DNA of 41,424 nucleotides from the NCBI GenBank assembly GCA_022570885.1, contig JACZYW010000001.1, forward strand, positions 1 to 41,424. The letters run 5' to 3'. Of the stretch, positions 12,986 to 21,302 are shown piece after piece. The notes below the pieces were generated by a model that saw only the letters and a list, made by a program, of their open reading frames with translations, was not told the origin of the DNA and searched no databases. The translations under genes were made by a program, and so were the position numbers. Each line of letters begins with the position of its first letter. Position 1 is the first letter of the stretch. This DNA is from Chloroflexota bacterium (lineage in GTDB: Bacteria > Chloroflexota > Dehalococcoidia > DSTF01 > RBG-16-68-14).

Positions 12986-15175
12986 TTATGCCGCGGGCTC
13001 TGCTGCCTCAGCCGGCTTAGAGCCGCCGTCTCCCTGATCGTCGCTCTCTGCCGGAGCTTCGTCCGACGGTTGCTCGTAGGAGTCACGGAGAATGTTGGGG
13101 ATCTGCTCCTGGTCCGAGCCTTCTGCTGCAGCCACCGTCTCCGTAGCGTCCAACTCGAACAGAAACGTCCAGGAGCCGACCGTGAACGTCTCGCCGGAAT
13201 CCAGGATCAGCCAGCTACCGGGCATCGACCCGCTGGTGCTCAACCGTTGCAGCTCGTGCACCATGAGCTTTCCATCTCGGACCCAGACTCTCGCCCACTC
13301 CGGAACGATCTCCTCGTCTCCATCTTTCTCGGGAAGCTTGATGAGACAGCGATAGCCGGAGCCGATGCTGGCGGCCGCGTCGCTCACCGGGAACGCCTGG
13401 CCCTGGAGCGAGCCGCTGGTGACCATCAGGCGGCCCAGCGGCTTGTTGGTGAGGACCGGCGTCGCCGGCGGCGGTTCGTCGCCCCAAAGCGGCCGAGGCG
13501 TAGGATTCTTGTTCCATCCGCCTGTGACGATGGGCCCGGGCGACGGGCCTTGTGGCGCATCCGGGTCGGGCTCTCCCTCGTCGCTGCGCCGCCGCCGCAG
13601 CAGGTAGCGCACGAAGAGCGCCCCGCCCACGCCCGCGACCACGATCAGCCCGGCCGCGATGAGAAGGCTTAGGCTCATCGTCTCGCCTTCGCTCGTGCGC
13701 ACCGTTACCGCGGCCGTGGCTGTTAAGCCGGCGTCGGTGACAACCTCAACTTGGAGCGTGTGCTCTCCACCCGCTGAGGAGGCTGGGTCGAAGCTGAACT
13801 CGTAAGGTGGCTCGGTGAGCTCTAGCACGGACTCGCCGTCCACCAGGAAGGTGACGCTGCTGATGGGATCGAGCGATTCGATCTCGGCGGTCACGGTGCG
13901 CGTTTCAGTGAGCTGCTCGTCGGAGGTCACGCCGCTTAATGTGACCGACGGTGCGGCTGGCGGGCCGGTGCGCACCAGCACCGCCGTTGACGTTGCCGTC
14001 CGCCCGGTGGTGGTGGCCACCGTTACCTGGAGCGAGTGCTCGCCGTCGCTGACGAGCGCCGGGTCGAACGTGAACTGGTAGGGCGGCTCAGTGAGCTGTA
14101 GCACCGCTTCGCCGTTCACTAGGAAGGTGACGCTGCTGATGGGATCGGCCGAGACGATCTGGGCGATCACGATGCGCGCGCCCTCTAGCCGCTCGCCTGG
14201 CTCCACCGCGCTCAGCGTCACGATCGGCCCCCGGGGCTCGAACGTGCGCTCGCCACTGCCCGTCAGCTCGCCTGTGGTCACGTCCACGCGGAGGGTGACC
14301 GCCTGCGATTCGTCCAGGGTGATCCCGGTCGTGTCTAGCGTGAGGATGTACTGGCCTCGCAGCAGCTCAGCCGCTTCCGCATAGAGCTGGGCCAGCCCCT
14401 GCGGCGATGGTGTCTCTGCGAACCGGCCGCCGCTTCCCTGGGCCAGCTCCTGAAGGTACGCGCGGTCGATGCCAGTACCGAGCCCGATGGCGAACACCGG
14501 CACGCCCAGCGTCTGAGCTGTCGTGAGGGCGTCGGCGCGCGAGAGCAGACTGCCGTCGTCGACGCCGTCGGTCAACAGCACCACCGTCAGGCGGCTGTTG
14601 CCGGAGTCGGCCGCCAGCCGGACGCTCGCGACCGTCGCGTCGTATAGCGCTGTATTGCCGCTCGCGACGAGGCCATCGATCGCAGCGCCTGCCGCTGCTC
14701 TGTCCGTCGTGAACGCCAAGAGCGGCGCCACAGTATCGGCGAAGGCGACGATAGCGACGGTGTCCTGTGGCCCAAGGTCGTCCAGGAAGCGATGGGCGGC
14801 TGTCTTCGCCTGGGTCAAGGCGCCACCGGCCATGCTGCCGCTTACGTCCAGCGCCAGCACGACGGCGATGCCCAAGCTGCTGTCTACGCCGCGGGTGACC
14901 GCGCTTACCGGCACGGCGGCGCCGTTGAGGTTGGCCTGGAACTGCTCAGCCGTTAGGTCGGCCAGCGGGCGGCCGTCGCTCGCCAGCACCGTCACCACCG
15001 CTTGCGCCTGCGAAGATTCGTCTGTGGTGAAGCTGGCCACCTCTACCGTCAGCGTCTCTTCCTGCGCGAGCCCGGCTACCGGCGAAAGCAACAGCGTCGC
15101 TAAGGCCAGGAGCAGCCATATCAGGTGGCTCCAGCGCAGACGTGACTTCAGTTCACGCTGCCGTCGATGTAACAC
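12986..15175 (-). CDS. secreted vWA domain - 2x Ig-like repeat - TM - cytoplasmic FHA domain protein
   Basis: 729 aa, GTG start with SD GGAGGG. Signal peptide LIWLLLALATLLLSPVAGLAQE. vWA MIDAS motif LALDVSGSM. Two roughly 90-aa paralogous repeats (...DPISSVTFLV(N/D)GE(A/S)VL(Q/E)LTEPPY(Q/E)F(T/S)FDP...). TM LLIAAGLIVVAGVGGALFV + RYLLRRRR. FHA-like C-terminus (LGRLMV..G...G..F.....SIGSG..C.I.L....VS..HA-like pattern). Confidence 0.85.
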   Translation of the reverse strand: MLHRRQRELKSRLRWSHLIWLLLALATLLLSPVAGLAQEETLTVEVASFTTDESSQAQAVVTVLASDGRPLADLTAEQFQANLNGAAVPVSAVTRGVDSSLGIAVVLALDVSGSMAGGALTQAKTAAHRFLDDLGPQDTVAIVAFADTVAPLLAFTTDRAAAGAAIDGLVASGNTALYDATVASVRLAADSGNSRLTVVLLTDGVDDGSLLSRADALTTAQTLGVPVFAIGLGTGIDRAYLQELAQGSGGRFAETPSPQGLAQLYAEAAELLRGQYILTLDTTGITLDESQAVTLRVDVTTGELTGSGERTFEPRGPIVTLSAVEPGERLEGARIVIAQIVSADPISSVTFLVNGEAVLQLTEPPYQFTFDPALVSDGEHSLQVTVATTTGRTATSTAVLVRTGPPAAPSVTLSGVTSDEQLTETRTVTAEIESLDPISSVTFLVDGESVLELTEPPYEFSFDPASSAGGEHTLQVEVVTDAGLTATAAVTVRTSEGETMSLSLLIAAGLIVVAGVGGALFVRYLLRRRRSDEGEPDPDAPQGPSPGPIVTGGWNKNPTPRPLWGDEPPPATPVLTNKPLGRLMVTSGSLQGQAFPVSDAAASIGSGYRCLIKLPEKDGDEEIVPEWARVWVRDGKLMVHELQRLSTSGSMPGSWLILDSGETFTVGSWTFLFELDATETVAAAEGSDQEQIPNILRDSYEQPSDEAPAESDDQGDGGSKPAEAAEPAA

Positions 15176-15219
15176 CGCGGCTCACCCTCCGTTTGATCCA
15201 TAGAACCAGGCGATCGTGC

Positions 15220-15248
15220 TTGACATATCGTGGAAGCTGTGACACAAT
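15220..15248 (+). promoter_or_regulatory. candidate sigma-70 promoter far upstream of ORF 15705
   Basis: TTGACA (15220-15225), 17 nt, CACAAT (15243-15248). It would give a roughly 450-nt leader. Confidence 0.35.
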
Positions 15249-15562
15249 ACGGCGCGATCAGCATGGCGCAGTACGATCCGTTCGCGGCTCGCTTTCGGAT
15301 CAGATACTCAAGTGTAGTATCGGACGGACGAGCGTACTGTTCAGGGCAAGGACGTCCCAGCGGAAGGATCGCTGTCGGGCAGCAGGAGGCGGGCCTGGGA
15401 GCGTAGGGGTGCTCCTTGTAGGAATCCCCACCTTAACTAAGCGATCTACAGCTGTTCCCTTCGGGGGGAGTTGAGATCGGGCTACGGGCCCAGGGGACGC
15501 GCGTTCAGGAGGCGGGGCCTGATTAGCGTCCCCTGGTTCCCACCCATGACAACAGAAGAGTG

Positions 15563-15684
15563 CCTCCGATAAAGGCGCGGCGCGGGAAACCGCGTTTGGC
15601 CGAAAGGCCCCCGGCGATTCGTCCGGGCGCAAAGCTTCGGGTCTACTCCCCGCGAGGGGAACGACAGCCGAGCTGCCGAAGAGG
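15563..15684 (+). promoter_or_regulatory. divergent GEMM (c-di-GMP-I)-like riboswitch candidate
   Basis: The 3' half CGCAAAGCUUCGGGUC-...-GACAGCCGAGCUGCCGAAG matches the 7210-7303 element (ACGCAAAGCCACGGGUCC-...-GGACAGCCGGGCUGCCGGA), including the AG bulge and compensatory helix changes. Both share the 5' CUCCGA. The first helix is replaced by three hairpins, two with GAAA loops. CCGAA (15676-80) can alternatively pair with UUCGG (15690-94), which overlaps the SD GGAGG. Confidence 0.5.
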
Positions 15685-15704
15685 AACCGTTCGGAGGATC
15701 TTCG

Positions 15705-16040
15705 ATGAAGCGGACATTAGCACGAGCCAGCTGCGCCGGTCTCCTGGCTGTTCTTCTCTCCACAGGCACTGGACTTGTCATCCTCGGGTTCGCGTTCGTC
15801 CCCACGAGCGAGACCACCAGCGTCTCCCTGGCGGCGACAGCGACTCCCACCTACGTCTCTGAGTTAGCGCCGGCTGTGGTGGTGCAGCCGCGCCAGGCCG
15901 CTGCCCTGCCCGATTCCGGCGCCGGCCCGAACCTCGGCGCGGCCAACCCGCTGCCCCGGGCGGCCGGCTTTGCGCTCTTGCTGCTGGGCGGCCTGCTGAT
16001 ACGTACTGGCCTCGCCTGGCGCTCCAGCACGAACCGCTAG
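15705..16040 (+). CDS. small secreted protein with an LPxTG-like (LPDSG) C-terminal signal
   Basis: 111 aa. SD GGAGG is 7 nt upstream. Signal peptide LARASCAGLLAVLLSTGTGLVILGFA. The C-terminus is LPDSGAG...FALLLLGGLLI + RTGLAWRSSTNR. Confidence 0.6.
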   Translation: MKRTLARASCAGLLAVLLSTGTGLVILGFAFVPTSETTSVSLAATATPTYVSELAPAVVVQPRQAAALPDSGAGPNLGAANPLPRAAGFALLLLGGLLIRTGLAWRSSTNR

Positions 16041-16118
16041 CGTCACACGTTTTCAGCCACCTCGACTCTTTGCCGATACTCCCCATGAAGCCGCCGTAAG
16101 GCGGCGCGGGAGGTCTGC

Positions 16119-16562
16119 GTGTCCAATCCCATCAGCCGTCTGGTCGAGCGTCGCTCGCTCCAGGCCGATGTCCGCCGAGCTCTCATGTCTGGCGTTGGCC
16201 TCTATCACACCACCTGGCCCTTCGAGAATAGCGCGGCAGCCGAGGCGAGCGAGGAGCTCACCGCGCAGCTAGTCGGCTGGTGCAGGGAGGTGCTGGGCGA
16301 AACGCGCCGGCCGTATGGGTTGGATTACGTGACGCTGGCGGTGGGGCTGCTCCGCGAAGGGGAGGGCCAGGTAGCGAGCGTCAACTTCGGCGTGCTCCGC
16401 CCCAGCGATTTCTACAACCAAAGCTTCGTGGAGGAGCAGGTACGGGAGACGCTGTGCTCCTGGTCTCGCTTTCCCACCATCGCCGGCGAGAGCGCCGGCA
16501 GCCTGTCCGTGGTGCTCTTTAGTTGGGGCGACCTGACCCGAGAGCTGCTCTTGGCGAGCTAA
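16119..16562 (+). CDS. hypothetical protein
   Basis: 147 aa, GTG start with SD GGGAGG. It ends 12 nt before the AAA+ gene. No recognisable motif. Confidence 0.55.
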   Translation: MSNPISRLVERRSLQADVRRALMSGVGLYHTTWPFENSAAAEASEELTAQLVGWCREVLGETRRPYGLDYVTLAVGLLREGEGQVASVNFGVLRPSDFYNQSFVEEQVRETLCSWSRFPTIAGESAGSLSVVLFSWGDLTRELLLAS

Positions 16563-16574
16563 GGAGGTTACACC

Positions 16575-17936
16575 ATGACCACAGAGACGACGCCCTCTAT
16601 CACGCGAGACGAGCCCGCTGAGCCCGACACCCCCACCGGCGCCTTCGTGCCCCAGCCGAGGAGCATCGAGGAGACGGGGCTGGAGCTCTCGCTCCTGGTT
16701 GACCTGGCGCTGAAGTCCATCCACTTCAGCGGCCGGCCTACCGGACGCCAGTTGGGCGAGCATCTCGCCTTGGCCTTCCCGGTGATCGAGGAGATCGTCG
16801 CGTTTCTCCGCCAAGAGCAGGCCATCGAGGTCGTCGGCAGTTCAGGCATTGGAGAGCAGGCGTATCAGTATGCACTATCGAAGCGGGGCACGGAGAAGGC
16901 GGAGGAGGCCTTGGGGCGCAATCAGTACGTCGGGCCGGCGCCGGTCCCCCTCTCGCTCTATACCGATGTCTTGCAGCACCAGTCCGTGCGCGATGTCCAC
17001 ATCGACCGTCAAACGTTCCTCGATGGGGTCTCGCACCTAGTCTTGAGTCGAAACGTGCTGGCTGCGTTGGGCCCGGCGGCTAACACCGGCCGCTCTGTGC
17101 TCATTTACGGCAACTCCGGCAACGGCAAGAGCAGCCTCGCCCTCGCTATCGCCGGCATGATGCCAGGCGCAGTGCTGATCCCGTACGCGGTAGAGGTGCA
17201 TGGGCAGATCATCAAGGTGTTCGATCCGCGCATGCACGAACCGGCGAAGCCGCAGGTGGCGGAGGAACGCCGGCAGACCGCCGCCTCGCCACCTGCTGGG
17301 CGGGAACGCCGCCAGGACCGGCGCTGGGTGGTGGCGAAGCGCCCGATGATTCGGGTGGGCGGCGAGCTGACGCTCCAGGATTTGGAGCTGCGGTATTCGG
17401 AGCTTTCCAAGTTCTACATCGCGCCGTTGCAGTGGAAGGCGAACAGCGGTGTGCTCATCATCGATGACTTTGGCCGGCAGCTGGTGCAGCCGAGAGAGCT
17501 GCTCAACCGCTGGATCGTGCCGATGGAGCAGGGGGTGGATCGCCTCTCGCTCCACACCGGCGATACGTTGGACTTGCCCTTCGAGGTCTTGCTCATCTTC
17601 TCGACGAACATCCCGCCGGCGAAGCTGGGCGACGAGGCGTTCTTCCGTCGCATCCGGCACAAGGTAGAGGTCCCCAACCCTACCCGAGAGGAGTATCTGG
17701 CGATCCTGGTTCGGGTCTGCGAGGAGCAGGGCGTTGCGCACACGGAGGAAGGCGCGCGTTACCTGGTTGAGGCCTACTATGATCAGACTGACCGTGAATT
17801 CAAGGGCTGCCATCCCCGAGACCTGGTGGAGCTCCTGATCGATATCACCAACTTCTACGGCGAGGAGCCGGAGCTGACGCCGGAGTGGATCGACCTGGCC
17901 TGCTCCTCCTACTTCGTCGAGGCTGAGGCTGCCTAG
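16575..17936 (+). CDS. AAA+ ATPase with an N-terminal winged-helix-like domain
   Basis: 453 aa with strong SD AAGGAGG. Walker A is LIYGNSGNGKSS and Walker B is VLIIDDFG. NRWIVPMEQGVDRLSLHTGDTLDLPFEVLLIFSTN...DEAFFRRI follows an AAA_5/MoxR-like layout. Confidence 0.85.
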   Translation: MTTETTPSITRDEPAEPDTPTGAFVPQPRSIEETGLELSLLVDLALKSIHFSGRPTGRQLGEHLALAFPVIEEIVAFLRQEQAIEVVGSSGIGEQAYQYALSKRGTEKAEEALGRNQYVGPAPVPLSLYTDVLQHQSVRDVHIDRQTFLDGVSHLVLSRNVLAALGPAANTGRSVLIYGNSGNGKSSLALAIAGMMPGAVLIPYAVEVHGQIIKVFDPRMHEPAKPQVAEERRQTAASPPAGRERRQDRRWVVAKRPMIRVGGELTLQDLELRYSELSKFYIAPLQWKANSGVLIIDDFGRQLVQPRELLNRWIVPMEQGVDRLSLHTGDTLDLPFEVLLIFSTNIPPAKLGDEAFFRRIRHKVEVPNPTREEYLAILVRVCEEQGVAHTEEGARYLVEAYYDQTDREFKGCHPRDLVELLIDITNFYGEEPELTPEWIDLACSSYFVEAEAA

Positions 17937-17960
17937 GCGTCCGACGCGCTTCTGATACCA

Positions 17961-18050
17961 AGAGGCTCCCGGCCGTTCGGCCGGGAGCCTCTCTCTTCGC
18001 TGCGGTGCTACTCCGCCTCTACGGCGGCCCGACGAAGACCATGGTGAAGT
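17961..18050. repeat. 90-bp perfect direct repeat, left copy (contains terminator hairpin)
   Basis: Identical to 19054-19143. Includes a 14-bp stem AGAGGCTCCCGGCC-GTTC-GGCCGGGAGCCTCT (17961-17992) and a copy of the last 32 nt of the CAP gene. Confidence 0.97.
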
Positions 18051-18083
18051 TATCCCTTCGATAGCGCCCCGTTTACGTTTGAG

Positions 18084-18779
18084 GTGAGAGTGGCGGCGTA
18101 TGGTACACTTGTTCTCAAAGCGAGCGAAGGTGCTAGTGTGGATGCGGCACCCATCATAGGCATAACCGGAATCGCGCTGACCGTGCTAGCCATGGGGTTA
18201 GGCTATAGCAAGCTGGAACTTAGTCACCCCTGGCTAGTCACTATGACACTCCTTGAACTTGGAGTATTGGTTGCGAGCGTTGTGCTAATGGGACCTCTAA
18301 TCGGCTCACTCATCGCTTTCTCTGTGGTCAGTGGGTTGATCCTCATCACCTCGATAAGGCTGGCGGTCCAGTACGACGAAGTGGCCACAGACGCGGCAAT
18401 CCATTGGCGGATGGATCGAGACAAGAGCAAAAATTTCATGAGAAGCCTGGTTCGATCCGAAGGCAAGCATTTTCAAGTTCTCGGGCTCTTGGGATCCGCA
18501 CGGCTGGCTGCTGCGCTGGCTAAATGCGCTCGGAGCCCTGAGGAAATCACGCTGATGGCGAAGCCCATAGCAATGCTCGGGGCGGTCTTTCACGAAAATC
18601 CGGTAGCTCTTGCACCTCGATTCGACCGGCTGATGAGGCGTTTTGGAGAGCCTCCGGAACGAGCCATGCATATGGCCGATGTCTTGACTAGAGCATCCCA
18701 GCTCACGCCGGGCTCGTTCGAGGAAGTGATGAAAGGCCTAGAGGCATTCGTCGGCACGAGCGATGAGCCTACTGAATAG
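18084..18779 (+). CDS. hypothetical membrane protein (3 predicted TM helices + helical C-terminal domain)
   Basis: 231 aa. TM segments are IIGITGIALTVLAMGLG, LVTMTLLELGVLVASVVLMG and LIGSLIAFSVVSGLILITSI. Codon usage is less GC-biased than in neighbouring genes. Confidence 0.55.
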   Translation: MRVAAYGTLVLKASEGASVDAAPIIGITGIALTVLAMGLGYSKLELSHPWLVTMTLLELGVLVASVVLMGPLIGSLIAFSVVSGLILITSIRLAVQYDEVATDAAIHWRMDRDKSKNFMRSLVRSEGKHFQVLGLLGSARLAAALAKCARSPEEITLMAKPIAMLGAVFHENPVALAPRFDRLMRRFGEPPERAMHMADVLTRASQLTPGSFEEVMKGLEAFVGTSDEPTE

Positions 18780-19053
18780 TTAGGGTCACCGGGGAGCGTC
18801 GTCCCCGACGACTTCGAGACCATCACTGAAGCAGTGGGCTTCCCGGTAGGGGGTAGTAAGGTCCTCTACGAAGCTGGGCTGATTCTCCTACGGTTGGCGC
18901 TATCGTCTACCAGGCCTCGCTACCCAGTAGATGCGCGCCGGGCAAAACTGGCCGCCAACCCTGGTCCGACTTCAGCCCGTACACTTCCTCGCCCGTGCCG
19001 CACAAACCGGCGGTCGCGGAGCCACAAGTAGAATACGCGGAGGACGATACGAG

Positions 19054-19143
19054 AGAGGCTCCCGGCCGTTCGGCCGGGAGCCTCTCTCTTCGCTGCGGTG
19101 CTACTCCGCCTCTACGGCGGCCCGACGAAGACCATGGTGAAGT
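19054..19143. repeat. 90-bp perfect direct repeat, right copy (terminator + authentic 3' end of the CAP gene)
   Basis: Identical to 17961-18050. It overlaps the CDS stop at 19112. Confidence 0.97.
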
Positions 19144-19981
19144 ACTTCATGTTCCCATCGGCGGCGAACCCGACGCCTAGCTGCGTAAACTCGACGTGGA
19201 GGATGTTCGCCCGGTGGCCGGGGCTGTTCATCAGGTCGCGGATGGCCACGGCCACGCTCTCGCTGTCGGGATAGTTGTTCCGCGCCAGGTTCTCCCCGGC
19301 CCAGCCGTAGCCCACGTTGTTCTCGTTCATGAGCGAGAAGGCGGTGTCACCGTGTGGGCTCTCATGCGCGAAGTAGTCTTTCGCTGCCATATCCTCAGAG
19401 CGGAGATTGGCGACGAACACCACGCATGAGTTGAGGCCCAGCGCTGACATCCCGTTGTCAGCCCTCGCGCTGTTGATGGCGTCGAAGAGCGCCTGCGCGA
19501 AGCTTCCCATGGCGGCCGTGGGACAGCTTGGGGGCTGGGGCGTAGGAACAGCCGTCGGCGGCACCGCCGTGGGTGGTACTGCGGTCGGCGCTAGCGCTAG
19601 CGGCACGGCGGTTGGCGCTAGCGGTACTGCGGTTGGCGCTGGCGATACTGCGTTCGGATCTCCCAACGCTGGCGTAGGTGTCAGAAGCGAAAGCGGCGTT
19701 CCTATCGGCGTTGGCGAGGCTGCGCGCGTCGCCGTGGGGATGATAGTGGCCGTAGGATCGTCCGCGATGGTGCTGCTGCCGTCCGCTGGCTCGACCGCTG
19801 TGAGCTCGTCGGCGGCGCTGGAAGCGGGCGCCCCGTCCCAATCCACTGCGAGAAGGAACGTTGCAGAGAAGGCGAAGAGGCTGAGCCCGCCGATGATCAA
19901 CGCCGCTCGTAGCAGCGCGACGCGCGTATTGCCCGTCAGCCAGCGAAGGCGCCCAAAGCGGCGGGGTGGAATGTTGTCCAT
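19112..19981 (-). CDS. membrane-anchored CAP/SCP (PR-1/YkwD-like) domain protein
   Basis: Start at ATG 19981 (SD GGAG); the track ORF opens at 20128. TM ALLRAALIIGGLSLFAFSATFLL. Pro/Thr/Ala linker with PTAVP repeats. C-terminal SCP-like ...DMAAKDYFAHESPHG...GWAGENLA...LMNSPGHRANIL.... Confidence 0.82.
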   Translation of the reverse strand: MDNIPPRRFGRLRWLTGNTRVALLRAALIIGGLSLFAFSATFLLAVDWDGAPASSAADELTAVEPADGSSTIADDPTATIIPTATRAASPTPIGTPLSLLTPTPALGDPNAVSPAPTAVPLAPTAVPLALAPTAVPPTAVPPTAVPTPQPPSCPTAAMGSFAQALFDAINSARADNGMSALGLNSCVVFVANLRSEDMAAKDYFAHESPHGDTAFSLMNENNVGYGWAGENLARNNYPDSESVAVAIRDLMNSPGHRANILHVEFTQLGVGFAADGNMKYFTMVFVGPP

Positions 19982-20119
19982 GTTTGCTCCGATCTCGCGT
20001 AAGCAGCGAATGTGTATGTAGAGGAGTCTCTTAGGGAATATCGGCGTAGTAGGTGAAAACCTTAAGGGAAATGGAGCGAACAGTGGCAACAGATGGCCCG
20101 AAACTTGCCGCGAACCTGC

Positions 20120-20149
20120 TTGACACACCTCGCAGATTCCAGATAGACT
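20120..20149 (+). promoter_or_regulatory. candidate promoter of the rpsL operon
   Basis: TTGACA (20120-20125), 18 nt, TAGACT (20144-20149), about 175 nt upstream of rpsL. Confidence 0.4.
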
Positions 20150-20324
20150 AGTCTGTCACCGCCTGAGAACAGCGTTTTTTCGCTGGGCCGAAGGCGCAGA
20201 ACAGTGATCACCGCCGGCAATGGTGGGTTTGTCTACCTAAGGGAGATGATCCCACGCCGGGTCAGGCTCAGGGTTGCGGCCTTCGGCTCGTGCTGTAGTT
20301 TTCAGGGGAGAATAAGGAGAGCTT

Positions 20325-20756
20325 GTGCCAACTATCAACCAGCTCGTGCGAAAAGGCCGGAAGCGGATCGTGAAGAAGACGAAGGCGCCGGCCCTGCGCT
20401 TCACCTACAATACGCTGAAGAACCGGATGGTGCGGGGGAAAGGGTCTCCCCAGAAGCGCGGCGTGTGCACCCAGGTGCGCACGATGACCCCCAAGAAGCC
20501 CAACTCCGCATTGCGGAAGATCGCCCGTGTGCGGCTCACCAACAGTATCGAGGTGACAGCATACATTCCCGGCGAGGGACACACGCTTCAGGAGCACTCA
20601 GTCGTCCTCATTCGAGGTGGCCGAGTGAAGGACCTGCCCGGCGTTCGCTACCACATCATCCGGGGCGCGTTGGATGCCCAGGGGGTGAGCGGGAGGCAGC
20701 GCGGGCGAAGCAAGTACGGCACCCGTAAGGGTGGTACGCCGGGCGGCGGCGTTTAG
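20325..20756 (+). CDS. rpsL: 30S ribosomal protein S12
   Basis: [12 protein letters not shown]...[10 protein letters not shown]...[11 protein letters not shown] start. Confidence 0.97.
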
Positions 20757-20831
20757 GAGAGGCCGCCAGCGCCAAGCACGCATCGGAACGCCCCGGCCAG
20801 CCGGGGCGACCGCTACTTGAAGGACTAAGGT

Positions 20832-21302
20832 ATGTCGCGACGATCCCGCGCGGTACGACGAGAGGTGATACCGGATGCCAAGTATGGCAACCGGCTGCTT
20901 AGCATGTTCATCAACAAGGTGATGCAGCGCGGGAAGAAGAGCATCGCGGAGCGCATCGTCTACCAGGCGCTGGACACGATCGAGGAGCAGCAAAAGCGCG
21001 ACCCGATGGAGGTCTTCGAGCAGGCGGTGCAGAACGCGACGCCGACGATTGAGGTGAAGCCACGGCGAGTCGGCGGCGCTACCTACCAAGTGCCGGTCGA
21101 CATCCGCGCCGAACGTAGACTCGCCCTCGCGCTGCGGTGGCTGCTCGCCTCGGCCCGCGCCCGTCGCGGCCGCTCGATGGCCGAACGGCTGGCCGCCGAG
21201 CTGAGCGACGCCGCCAGCGGGCAGGGCTCAACGGTGAAGAAGAAAGAGGATACCCATCGAATGGCGGAGGCGAACCGAGCCTTCGTCCATTATCGATGGT
21301 AA
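20832..21302 (+). CDS. rpsG: 30S ribosomal protein S7
   Basis: [19 protein letters not shown]...[13 protein letters not shown]. Confidence 0.97.

What the first reader, a model, noticed from the sequence alone, without database searches (positions are those of the whole stretch)
17961..19143. Perfect 90-bp direct repeats bracket a lower-GC single-gene insert between two convergent genes
17961-18050 and 19054-19143 are identical over 90 bp. The repeat comprises a 14-bp-stem bidirectional terminator plus the last 32 nt of the CAP/SCP gene, so the left copy carries a stranded 3' gene fragment. The enclosed roughly 1.0 kb is clearly less GC-rich than its flanks. It encodes only a 231-aa three-TM protein plus about 270 bp of apparently non-coding DNA. 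This is the footprint of integration by recombination at an att-like site (attL/attR), or of a duplication-mediated capture. No integrase or transposase is present, so the insert is either a remnant or mobilised in trans.
Basis: seen in the sequence. Interest (0 to 1): 0.65.

Follow-up and report, generated by a model that had tools for sequence, protein, structure and literature searches.

The report
Integrase-less gene cassette at att site
A 1-kb piece of foreign DNA carrying one membrane-protein gene has recently been slotted into the shared terminator and 3' end of a conserved gene in an uncultured Chloroflexota (Dehalococcoidia-like) chromosome, duplicating that 98-bp site. It is a small mobile cassette with no recombinase of its own, which is a known kind of element.

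Summary
17961-18050 and 19054-19143 are identical (90/90), and the duplication extends to 17954-18050 / 19046-19143 (96/98). Each copy holds a 14-bp-stem hairpin, a spacer and the last 32 nt of the CAP gene. The enclosed 995 bp is the lowest-GC stretch of the window.

It is a real insertion. A 92%-identical relative (L090) and several distant ones have AAA+ gene, one site copy, then CAP gene. The same insert, with the same junction, sits at this site in two or three other host lineages. Window versus L001: insert gene dS is 0.15, flanking genes 0.74-0.97. Between strains the insert has 0/995 differences while flanks differ by about 2%. Another cargo (MTaX1) uses the same site in L092.

The insert encodes X, a 213-aa three-TM protein distantly related to phage tape-measure proteins and under purifying selection. 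The "non-coding" 270 bp holds the decayed C-terminus of a second gene, Y.

Best reading: an integrase-less, att-flanked cassette (CIME-like) integrated by Campbell-type recombination at the conserved CAP 3' end. Whether a trans-acting recombinase or host RecA does this is unresolved.

It is a new member of a known kind, of moderate interest.

The parts
16575..17936 (+). Left flanking host gene: P-loop AAA/STAND-like ATPase (453 aa), conserved in synteny across Dehalococcoidia/Chloroflexota MAGs
   Evidence: Pfam AAA_16/nSTAND1 weak hits; orthologues at 57-95% identity in 37 GTDB and 40 JGI loci
17954..18050 (.). Left copy of the duplicated site (attL-like): pre-hairpin 7 nt, hairpin 17961-17992, spacer 17993-18018, stranded CAP 3' fragment 18019-18050
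   Evidence: a single copy of this unit is present in the empty site of L090
17961..17992 (.). 14-bp-stem GC-rich hairpin (loop TTCG), which probably serves as a bidirectional terminator of the convergent AAA+ and CAP genes; weak U-tract
   Evidence: the consensus terminator scan did not call it
18019..18050 (-). Stranded 32-nt copy of the CAP gene 3' end (..FTMVFVGPP*). This is the conserved 'core' shared by both site copies in every carrier lineage
   Evidence: the CAP C-terminus MKYFTMVFxGPP is conserved across relatives
18051..18137 (+). Conserved left end of the insert (about 75 nt). It is shared by the elements in L001, L045 and L009 whatever cargo follows. It could be a recombination arm or a cargo promoter
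   Evidence: alignments; L009 carries it with unrelated cargo
18138..18779 (+). Cargo gene X: 213-aa protein with three N-terminal TM helices and a helical C-terminal domain distantly related to the PF10145 core of phage tape-measure proteins. Listed as ORF 18084-18779 (231 aa); the likely true start is GTG 18138
   Evidence: dN/dS 0.31 vs L001; GC3 0.59
18786..18930 (+). Pseudogene remnant of cargo gene Y (140 aa, intact in L001 and L045). Residues 1 to about 92 are deleted and there is a frameshift before the last 12 codons
   Evidence: tblastn 74% identity to Y residues 95-129; frames; Y found only in L001 and L045
18931..19045 (+). Conserved right-end 'tail' of the insert (about 80-85% identical to L001 and L045), followed by about 20 nt of lineage-specific filler before the right site copy
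19046..19143 (.). Right copy of the duplicated site (attR-like): hairpin 19054-19085, spacer, and the functional 3' end of the CAP gene (19112-19143)
19112..20128 (-). Right flanking host gene: secreted CAP/SCP (YkwD-like) domain protein. Its conserved 3' end is the integration target
   Evidence: Pfam CAP E = 2e-15, NCBIfam YkwD 1.6e-28; conserved next to rpsL-rpsG-fusA

Best explanation
The 995-bp segment 18051-19045 is a horizontally acquired cassette with no recombinase of its own. It is integrated at a conserved attachment site made of the shared terminator hairpin plus the last 32 nt of the CAP gene.

Integration was conservative and Campbell-type. An element-borne copy of the site recombined with the chromosomal copy, most probably within or next to the 32-nt CAP core. 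The site now flanks the insert as attL (17954-18050) and attR (19046-19143). Both convergent genes keep a terminator, and CAP keeps an intact 3' end.

The repeats are nearly perfect here because the element last came from a conspecific donor. After a transfer between lineages (L001) only the core is identical.

The cassette carries a functional gene X (a membrane protein with a tape-measure-like domain, possibly phage-related or defensive; this function is inferred only) and a decayed gene Y.

Movement must be catalysed in trans. My estimates, conditional on this explanation being right, are about 60% for a site-specific recombinase encoded elsewhere (the CIME-like case) and about 40% for host homologous recombination acting on the repeat or core.

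Shown: the insertion, the empty sites, foreign composition, recent horizontal spread, the shared junction, and absence of a recombinase in cis.

Inferred: the circular intermediate, the crossover position, the enzyme, and the function of X.
For: 1. Empty sites with one site copy occur in L090 (flanks 92.3% and 88.9% identical; the two alignments overlap by exactly the 96-nt unit) and in L091, L011, L019, L033, L031 and L044.

2. The same insert, with the same left junction (..CATGGTGAAGT|TATYCC..), is present in L001 and L045.

3. Window vs L001: dS of X is 0.15. dS of p147, AAA+, CAP, rpsL, rpsG and fusA is 0.74-0.97. High identity starts at the CAP fragment and ends about 25 nt before the right hairpin.

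4. The AAA+ protein of L001 is closer to L092, L008 and the empty-site genome L011 than to the window's.

5. Strains L002 and L003 show 0/995 differences in the insert. The flanks show 59/3365 and the two site copies 4/195. Fisher p = 3e-7 and 7e-4 respectively.

6. In L001 the two site copies are 100% identical in the 32-nt core but only 51% identical outside it. The left copy resembles L092 (71%) and the right copy resembles L008 (69%). That is two sites of different origin joined at a core.

7. L092 has a different cargo (MTaX1 domain, E = 9e-22) behind a stranded CAP fragment, with its junction within 5 nt of this one. L009 has the same ~70-nt element left end with other cargo.

8. Composition is foreign: GC 57.2% vs 64.7%, GC3 0.59.

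9. No terminal inverted repeats, no tRNA, no Rfam family, and no recombinase in the window genes examined.
Against: - No cognate integrase-bearing element using this site was found. This covers 77 related loci and IMG/VR, where the CAP core had 0 matches.
- No circular junction could be examined.
- With a crossover in the core, the right-hand hairpin and spacer should be donor-type. Yet in the window they match the host type: identical to the left copy and 92% like L090. The same holds for the ~30 nt visible in L045. This needs conspecific donors or later gene conversion.
- Only three or four carrier lineages are known. All are metagenome contigs, several of them short Logan contigs that break at the repeat. 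Long-range linkage in L002 and L003 could in principle be strain-chimeric, although the SNP haplotypes inside the repeats are too close together to be assembly artefacts.
- Y, the only candidate DNA-binding protein, is a pseudogene in the window. It therefore cannot be needed in cis.
Confidence: 0.62

Rival explanations
1. Transposition-like or repair-mediated insertion that duplicates the recipient's own ~98-bp target (a very long target-site duplication from staggered breaks at the base of the hairpin and 32 nt inside CAP). The mobile unit would be only 18051-19045.
For: Hairpin and spacer are lineage-specific. In the window both copies are host-type, and the same holds for the visible part of L045. 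Element-level identity stops at the inner edges of the repeats. The junction between the tail and the right copy is ragged between lineages.
Against: In L001 the copies are 51% identical outside the core while X is only 7% diverged from the window's. In L002 and L003 the two copies differ at 2-3 sites although the insert shows 0/995 changes. There are no terminal inverted repeats and no transposase. I know of no transposase that makes ~100-bp duplications (background knowledge).
Confidence: 0.12
2. A single ancient insertion in a common ancestor, inherited vertically and lost repeatedly by recombination between the repeats. The repeats would be homogenised by gene conversion, and X alleles occasionally exchanged between carrier lineages by homologous recombination.
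For: The junction is the same in all carriers. Both copies share lineage-specific or strain-specific substitutions, namely C/T at 17998/19091 and GAC/GAT in the core, as concerted evolution predicts. Direct repeats would give precise loss.
Against: dS of X is 5-fold lower than that of six flanking genes. The zone of high identity coincides with the insert edges. Homologous recombination between hosts with dS of about 0.8 and hairpin/spacer flanks only 46-66% identical is implausible. Different cargos share the site and the left end.
Confidence: 0.1
3. An ordinary 'minimal mobile element' or hotspot: a variable cassette between two conserved genes, exchanged by homologous recombination in the flanking genes after DNA uptake, with the repeat an incidental terminator duplication.
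For: The AAA+/CAP gap is a variable spot. Other genomes there carry a GNAT, a metallophosphatase plus Nramp, HNH plus C5-methylase, a histidine kinase, PhyH, or a 5.4-kb block. None of these has repeats or integrases. The MME concept is described in PMC3787668.
Against: Exchange through the flanks should co-transfer flanking sequence. Here divergence jumps from 0 to about 2% within 50 nt of the insert on both sides, and from 7% to more than 30% in L001. This model does not explain the stranded CAP fragment or the shared junction.
Confidence: 0.08
4. Assembly artefact: a de Bruijn-graph loop or chimera created the repeat-insert-repeat layout.
For: The window is probably a metagenome contig. Logan contigs L004-L006 break exactly at the repeat.
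Against: The same layout was recovered by independent assemblies and assemblers from different samples (ENA scaffolds, a MEGAHIT k141 contig, an NCBI contig), with different SNPs in the repeats. It is also found in a ~76-82% identical lineage whose repeats have diverged.
Confidence: 0.02

Closest known systems
Cis-mobilizable elements (CIMEs): decayed ICE/IME that kept attL and attR but lost integration and transfer genes (definition in PMC5704250). From background knowledge, an example is the CIMEs at the 3' end of fda in Streptococcus thermophilus.
   Same: Flanked by direct repeats, one of which contains the 3' end of a protein-coding target gene. No integrase, no transfer genes. Cargo only. 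Presumed mobilisation in trans.
   Different: Only 1-2 kb. No parent ICE, IME or prophage using this site was found, so derivation by decay is not shown. The repeat is 98 bp in this strain, against the 27 bp I recall for the fda-associated elements. The cassettes share conserved ~75-nt and ~130-nt ends with swappable cargo.
e14 / phage 21 integration into the 3' end of icd in E. coli, leaving the icdC C-terminal pseudogene fragment (PMC13626634; Hill et al. 1989 cited there)
   Same: Integration inside the 3' end of a conserved protein-coding gene. The gene end is duplicated so the gene stays intact, and a stranded C-terminal fragment is left at the far side of the element.
   Different: e14 is a 15-kb prophage with its own integrase and SOS-induced excision. 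Here there is no integrase, the duplicated unit also includes the terminator, and the coding part is only 32 nt.
ssrA-specific genomic islands of Dehalococcoides (PMC3146451)
   Same: Same bacterial class. Low-GC islands flanked by the target gene's 3' end and its direct repeat. 15 of 31 islands lack the integration module and were proposed to be CIMEs. Cargo is strain-specific.
   Different: Their target is tmRNA with a 20-bp repeat, and a serine recombinase (DsiB) is known. Here the target is a protein gene plus terminator, and no recombinase is known.
Minimal mobile elements of Neisseria (Saunders & Snyder 2002, via PMC3787668)
   Same: Different cassettes between the same two conserved genes in different genomes, with no mobility genes.
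   Different: MMEs move by homologous recombination in the flanking genes and have no att-like repeats. Here the exchange boundaries lie within the 98-bp repeat.
Tn7 at attTn7 (background knowledge)
   Same: Uses the conserved 3' end of a housekeeping-type gene as a landmark and inserts at or near its terminator without inactivating the gene.
   Different: Tn7 carries TnsABCD, has terminal repeats and makes a 5-bp duplication. None of these is present here.

Membership tests
att-flanked integrative element without integrase (CIME-like) | Direct repeats bound the insert, one overlapping the 3' end of the target gene | tested here: met
   17954-18050 / 19046-19143, 96/98 identical; the right copy contains the CAP stop and last 10 codons
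att-flanked integrative element without integrase (CIME-like) | Unoccupied site with a single copy of the repeat in related genomes | tested here: met
   L090 (92% nt), L091, L011, L019, L033, L031, L044
att-flanked integrative element without integrase (CIME-like) | Insert horizontally acquired (composition, age, incongruence with host) | tested here: met
   GC 57% vs 65%, GC3 0.59; dS 0.15 vs 0.74-0.97; 0/995 vs ~2%; carriers not monophyletic
att-flanked integrative element without integrase (CIME-like) | No integrase, excisionase or transfer genes inside the element | tested here: met
   Only X and a Y remnant; Pfam, NCBIfam, PHROGs and PADLOC give no recombinase
att-flanked integrative element without integrase (CIME-like) | Derived from, or mobilised by, an integrase-encoding element that uses the same att site | tested here: inconclusive
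   No such element among 77 syntenic loci or in IMG/VR. Whole genomes of carriers were not available.
att-flanked integrative element without integrase (CIME-like) | Excision to a circle with attP and restoration of attB | not testable with these tools
   Needs raw reads or PCR. The ends of the L045 contig (21-nt terminal overlap) are ambiguous.
IS / MITE / DDE transposon | Terminal inverted repeats, short (2-15 bp) target duplication, transposase | tested here: not met
   No TIRs; the duplication is 98 bp; no transposase domain
Integron gene cassette | An attC site at the 3' end of the cassette, boundaries at G|TTRRRY, an intI/attI platform nearby | tested here: not met
   The junction reads GAAGT|TATCCC. 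The only palindrome is the perfect host terminator hairpin, which is also present in empty sites. No integrase in the window genes scanned. The attC test was by inspection only.
Prophage remnant | Phage structural or replication genes, or phage-family hits | tested here: inconclusive
   PHROGs: no hit. PF10145 16 bits, below the 33.2 cutoff. A profile search links the X family weakly to true tape-measure proteins (E about 1e-4). No X in IMG/VR.
Minimal mobile element | Cassette exchanged by homologous recombination within the conserved flanking genes | tested here: not met
   The divergence step occurs within 50 nt or less of the insert edges, inside the repeat
Terminator-targeting group IIC intron / other RNA element | Intron RNA domains and a reverse-transcriptase ORF | tested here: not met
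   Apart from an unrelated c-di-GMP riboswitch, no Rfam family reaches its gathering score in 15000-21000; no RT domain

The most novel reading that the evidence does not exclude
These are members of an undescribed family of 1-2 kb cassettes. They have conserved ends (a ~75-nt left end and a ~130-nt right tail) and swappable cargo: X-Y, a GIY-YIG gene, an MTaX1-domain gene, and others. They insert at a 'terminator hairpin + conserved gene 3' end' site across deeply diverged Dehalococcoidia without encoding any recombinase. They would be moved either by a host housekeeping enzyme (as IMEX elements exploit XerCD) or by a structure- and core-guided mechanism that re-copies the recipient's terminator. 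The latter would explain why the hairpin and spacer are host-type on both sides.
Probability: 0.2. Interest if true: 0.7.

Novelty: new member of a known kind. Interest (0 to 1): 0.42.

Why it matters
It shows mobile DNA acting recently in a poorly known, uncultured bacterial group. A one-gene cassette has moved between lineages as distant as dS of about 0.8, and always into the same 32-nt stretch of a conserved gene end. It also gives a concrete attB/attP pair and sample accessions with which the missing recombinase could be sought. The cargo family X (about 100 clusters of ~200-aa membrane proteins with a tape-measure-like domain) has no known function. Its neighbours in other contigs include a toxin-antitoxin pair, an ImmA-like peptidase and a methyltransferase, so it may be worth testing for a role in phage interactions. 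Nothing here overturns current views of integrative elements.

Tried and rejected
1. I looked for stranded CAP fragments in every filled AAA+/CAP gap of the GTDB loci. Only the window and L001 were significant. A look-alike in L008 that I spotted by eye did not beat shuffles. Its two terminators are nevertheless 69% alike, which I leave open.

2. Profile scans for X in JGI metagenome contigs and in IMG/VR found nothing.

3. A 19-nt tail motif hit two IMG/VR contigs. The match does not extend, and about 0.9 matches are expected by chance, so I rejected it.

4. The CAP core pattern has 0 hits in IMG/VR.

5. Structure of X: the model is all-helical with pLDDT 70.5 and has no PDB fold match with E < 0.1. 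The Y model was too poor to use (pLDDT 56). Y has no Pfam, PDB or PADLOC hit.

6. No sigma-70-type promoter was called around the insert.

7. I considered homing by the GIY-YIG gene of L045. I rejected it as a general mechanism, because that gene is absent from the window and L001 and because the flanks show no co-conversion.

8. I tried to place a fixed crossover point from the SNPs in L002 and L003. The data fit either a crossover between 17990 and 18009 or one inside the core, so this is not resolved.

9. The L045 contig starts and ends in the hairpin with a 21-nt overlap. I could not decide whether that reflects a circle or a break at the repeat.
Full report
**Observation**

The two stretches 17961-18050 and 19054-19143 are identical over 90 bp. 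BLAST extends the duplication to 17954-18050 / 19046-19143, 98 columns with one mismatch and one indel.

Each copy has four parts:
- a few pre-hairpin bases;
- a perfect 14-bp-stem hairpin with a TTCG loop (17961-17992 and 19054-19085). This motif occurs nowhere else in the window and is not expected by chance. It folds strongly;
- a 26-nt spacer;
- 32 nt that are the reverse complement of the last ten codons plus TAG of the CAP/YkwD-like gene 19112-20128.

The left copy therefore carries a stranded CAP 3' fragment at 18019-18050, directly after the terminator of the convergent AAA+ gene (16575-17936).

The enclosed 995 bp has 57.2% GC against a window mean of 64.7%. It is the lowest-GC interval of the whole 41 kb. 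GC3 of its gene is 0.59, against 0.74-0.91 in neighbouring host genes. No tRNA gene is present. The only Rfam match above threshold in 15000-21000 is an unrelated c-di-GMP riboswitch.

**Genomic setting**

The window is core chromosome of an uncultured Chloroflexota/Dehalococcoidia-type bacterium. Gene order is ftsQ-ftsA-ftsZ, tad-pilus genes, nrdR, class II ribonucleotide reductase, an ECF sigma factor, a VWA protein, p147, AAA+, [insert], CAP, then rpsL-rpsG-fusA and the ribosomal protein operon. The order VWA - p147 - AAA+ - CAP(-) - rpsL - rpsG - fusA recurs in dozens of MAGs and metagenome contigs. No recombinase or transposase was found among the window genes examined.

**Content of the insert**

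The ORF listed as 18084-18779 (231 aa) belongs to a small family of eight 90% clusters. All other members start at the position of GTG 18138, so the protein (X) is most likely 213 aa.

X has three N-terminal hydrophobic helices and a helical C-terminal domain. The AlphaFold model has mean pLDDT 70.5 and no PDB fold match. Pfam gives only a sub-threshold hit to PF10145, the phage tape-measure core (E = 0.009).

A profile search of 1.8 billion representatives finds about 109 clusters. Most are stand-alone proteins of about 200 aa. At the weak end they include genuine 600-1365-aa tape-measure proteins, whose PF10145 domains I confirmed. X is under purifying selection (dN/dS 0.31), so it is a working gene. 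Its function is unknown: PHROGs and PADLOC give nothing.

In the window its first ~92 codons are deleted and a frameshift precedes the last 12 codons. Y occurs only in those two contigs in the 5.8-billion-cluster collection and matches no family.

**It is an insertion, and empty sites exist**

L090 is a contig whose AAA+ protein is 95% identical to the window's. Its order is AAA+ stop, 82 nt, CAP stop. The window aligns to it as 15635-18050 (92.3%) and 19047-20868 (88.9%). The two alignments overlap on L090 by 96 nt, which is exactly one copy of the repeat unit. L091 (77% AAA+ identity) is also empty, as are the GTDB loci L011, L019, L033, L031 and L044 (gaps of 87-109 nt). The ancestral state is therefore AAA+, one bidirectional hairpin, CAP.

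**The same insert sits at the same nucleotide position in other hosts and is much younger than they are**

L001 (NCBI metagenome contig) has the same layout with X (90% aa identity) and intact Y. L045 (Logan contig) has hairpin, spacer, CAP-like fragment, the same junction, an extra GIY-YIG-like ORF, X, Y, and then the start of the same hairpin again. The left junction ..CATGGTGAAGT|TATYCCT.. is the same in all three.

Between the window and L001, flanking genes are 67-83% identical at the nucleotide level, while X is 93% identical. dS values make the same point:
- X: 0.15;
- p147: 0.97;
- AAA+: 0.74;
- CAP: 0.74;
- rpsL: 0.82;
- rpsG: 0.92;
- fusA: 0.87.

High identity begins at the stranded CAP fragment and ends about 25 nt before the right hairpin. 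The hairpin and spacer of both copies are the least similar parts.

L001's AAA+ protein is closer to those of L092 (79.8%), L008 (76.0%) and the empty-site genome L011 (72.9%) than to the window's (71.6%). The carriers are therefore not a clade. The insert has moved horizontally into the same site in hosts that had long since diverged.

**Spread within the species is very recent**

Contigs L002 and L003 come from other samples and assemblers. They carry the same arrangement. Their flanks differ from the window at 59 of 3365 positions. The two repeat copies differ at 4 of 195 positions. The 995-bp insert differs at 0. Fisher p is 3e-7 for flanks against insert and 7e-4 for repeats against insert.

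The SNPs inside the repeats lie 11-20 nt apart. These haplotypes must therefore exist in single molecules and cannot come from chimeric assembly. Long-range linkage to the flanks could in principle be chimeric.

Logan contigs L004-L006 start 30 nt (k-1) before the end of the left repeat. That is expected if the repeat is real in those samples too.

**The site is used by other cargo**

L092 carries the AAA+ closest to L001's. After the AAA+ terminator and spacer it has CTACGGCGGCCCGATGAAGACCATGGT, a stranded CAP fragment. Within 5 nt of the usual junction a different gene follows, with an MTaX1 (methylase-associated) domain (E = 9e-22). The contig ends before the right side.

L009/L093, a GTDB MAG, has a stranded CAP fragment followed by about 70 nt that are nearly identical to the element's left end in L001. 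After that come unrelated genes, IS3-like remnants and a loss of synteny. Its hairpin is the L045 type, and the last 30 nt of L045 match L093's AAA+ 3' flank exactly.

The cassettes thus share a conserved left end (18051-18137 here) and a conserved tail (about 18931-19025), with variable cargo in between.

Elsewhere the AAA+/CAP gap is simply a variable spot. It holds a GNAT, a metallophosphatase plus Nramp, HNH plus C5-methylase, a histidine kinase, PhyH or a 5.4-kb block. None of these has repeats or integrases.

**Mechanism**

Three features argue for conservative, Campbell-type recombination between an element-borne copy of the site and the chromosomal copy, rather than a target-site duplication.
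X has diverged only 7% from the window's X, so these copies cannot be a duplicate that drifted apart.
- In L002 and L003 the two copies differ at 2-3 sites although the insert has accumulated no change.
- There are no terminal inverted repeats and no transposase.

The CAP C-terminus (MKYFTMVFxGPP*) and its coding sequence are conserved across this group. That makes it a portable attB, much as tRNA or tmRNA 3' ends serve other elements. The near-perfect 98-bp repeat in the window would then simply reflect a conspecific donor.

The enzyme is not established. Options are a site-specific recombinase encoded elsewhere (the CIME situation; PMC5704250) or RecA acting on 98 bp within a species and on the 32-nt core between species.

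One observation does not fit cleanly. The right-hand hairpin and spacer are host-type in the window, and so is the visible part in L045. A core crossover should leave them donor-type unless donors are conspecific or gene conversion follows. In addition, 'AGCCACA' in the element tail equals the host pre-hairpin sequence of L009. It may be a relic of an earlier host.

**Rivals**

- A very long target-site duplication (0.12) explains the host-type repeats. It is contradicted by L001 and by the strain SNPs.
- A single ancient insertion with concerted evolution (0.10) explains the shared junction and the substitutions shared by both copies within a lineage. It is contradicted by the five-fold dS deficit and by the non-monophyly of carriers.
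- Exchange through the flanking genes, as in Neisseria minimal mobile elements (PMC3787668) (0.08), predicts co-transfer of flank sequence. That is not seen.
- An assembly artefact (0.02) is excluded by independent assemblies with different SNPs and by the diverged L001 version.

**Comparison with known systems**

The anatomy is that of an integrative element at the 3' end of a protein-coding gene that restores the gene end and strands the old one. The e14/icd-icdC case is the classic example (PMC13626634).

In lacking integrase and transfer genes while keeping attL and attR, it fits the definition of a cis-mobilizable element. In the same class, Dehalococcoides ssrA islands show low-GC cargo between the target's 3' end and a 20-bp repeat, and half of them lack the integration module (PMC3146451).

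Four of the six CIME features listed in the membership test were tested and met. Descent from, or mobilisation by, an integrase-bearing element was looked for and not found. Excision could not be tested. It is not an IS or MITE, not an integron cassette, not a group II intron, and not demonstrably a prophage remnant (see the membership table).

**Verdict**

This is a new member of a known kind: a very small, recently mobile, recombinase-less cassette at a newly recognised attachment site in uncultured Dehalococcoidia-type Chloroflexota. The mobilising enzyme and the cargo function are open questions. Interest is moderate (0.42). The more novel reading is a dedicated cassette system with conserved ends that exploits a host enzyme or re-copies the recipient's terminator. 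It is not excluded, and I give it a probability of about 0.2.

Noticed in passing
window 15596-15680 (+): c-di-GMP-I riboswitch (RF01051), 49.1 bits against a gathering score of 35, E = 1.3e-7. It lies just upstream of a 111-aa ORF (15705-16040) that has no Pfam hit, between the VWA gene and the p147/AAA+ pair.
   Followed up: no
window 18786-18930 (+): The supposedly non-coding part of the insert is a pseudogene. It is the C-terminal remnant of a 140-aa gene Y, which I judge by eye to be HTH-like. It has an N-terminal deletion and a frameshift. Y is intact only in L001 4814-5236 and L045 1507-1929.
   Followed up: yes
L045 355-774 (+): In one carrier lineage a 139-aa GIY-YIG-like ORF (Pfam E = 0.0017; weak PADLOC PDC-S14 hits) lies between the element's conserved left end and X. 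It may be a free-standing nuclease gene that entered the cassette.
   Followed up: partly
L092 1936-2636: A different cargo, an ORF with a methylase-associated MTaX1 domain (PF20296, E = 9e-22), follows a stranded CAP 3' fragment at the same site in another host. The right end is not on the contig.
   Followed up: partly
L009 8435-8540 / L093 11363-14469: A GTDB MAG (JACZRQ010000002.1) keeps the stranded CAP fragment and the ~70-nt element left end. After that it has a CMD-like gene, an APH-family kinase and IS3-like transposase fragments, with no CAP/rpsL within 10 kb. This looks like a rearranged or much larger element.
   Followed up: partly
L015 8722-11435: In another relative the same AAA+/CAP gap holds an HNH endonuclease plus a C5 cytosine methylase, a likely restriction-modification pair. 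Its GC3 is low (0.61-0.63) and there are no flanking repeats.
   Followed up: no
L008 8381-8450 vs 13734-13800: The AAA+-side and CAP-side terminators that flank a 5.4-kb block in L008 are 69% alike over 64 nt. The first is followed by a weak CAP-end look-alike. This may be an older, decayed event of the same kind. It was not significant in the shuffle test.
   Followed up: partly
window 18013-18027 and 19106-19120: A short inverted repeat, CCGCC-TCTAC-GGCGG, straddles the CAP stop codon in both copies. Similar GGCCGC..GCGGCC pairs occur in L008 and in the right copy of L001. It lies where the crossover is inferred and could be a recombinase core site or mere GC-rich chance.
   Followed up: no
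L046-L049, L007: More distant X homologues (52-63% identity) sit alone in unrelated contexts: next to an ImmA/IrrE-like peptidase, a PemK toxin pair, a methyltransferase and an alcohol dehydrogenase. None has CAP-type repeats. X therefore also travels outside this cassette.
   Followed up: partly
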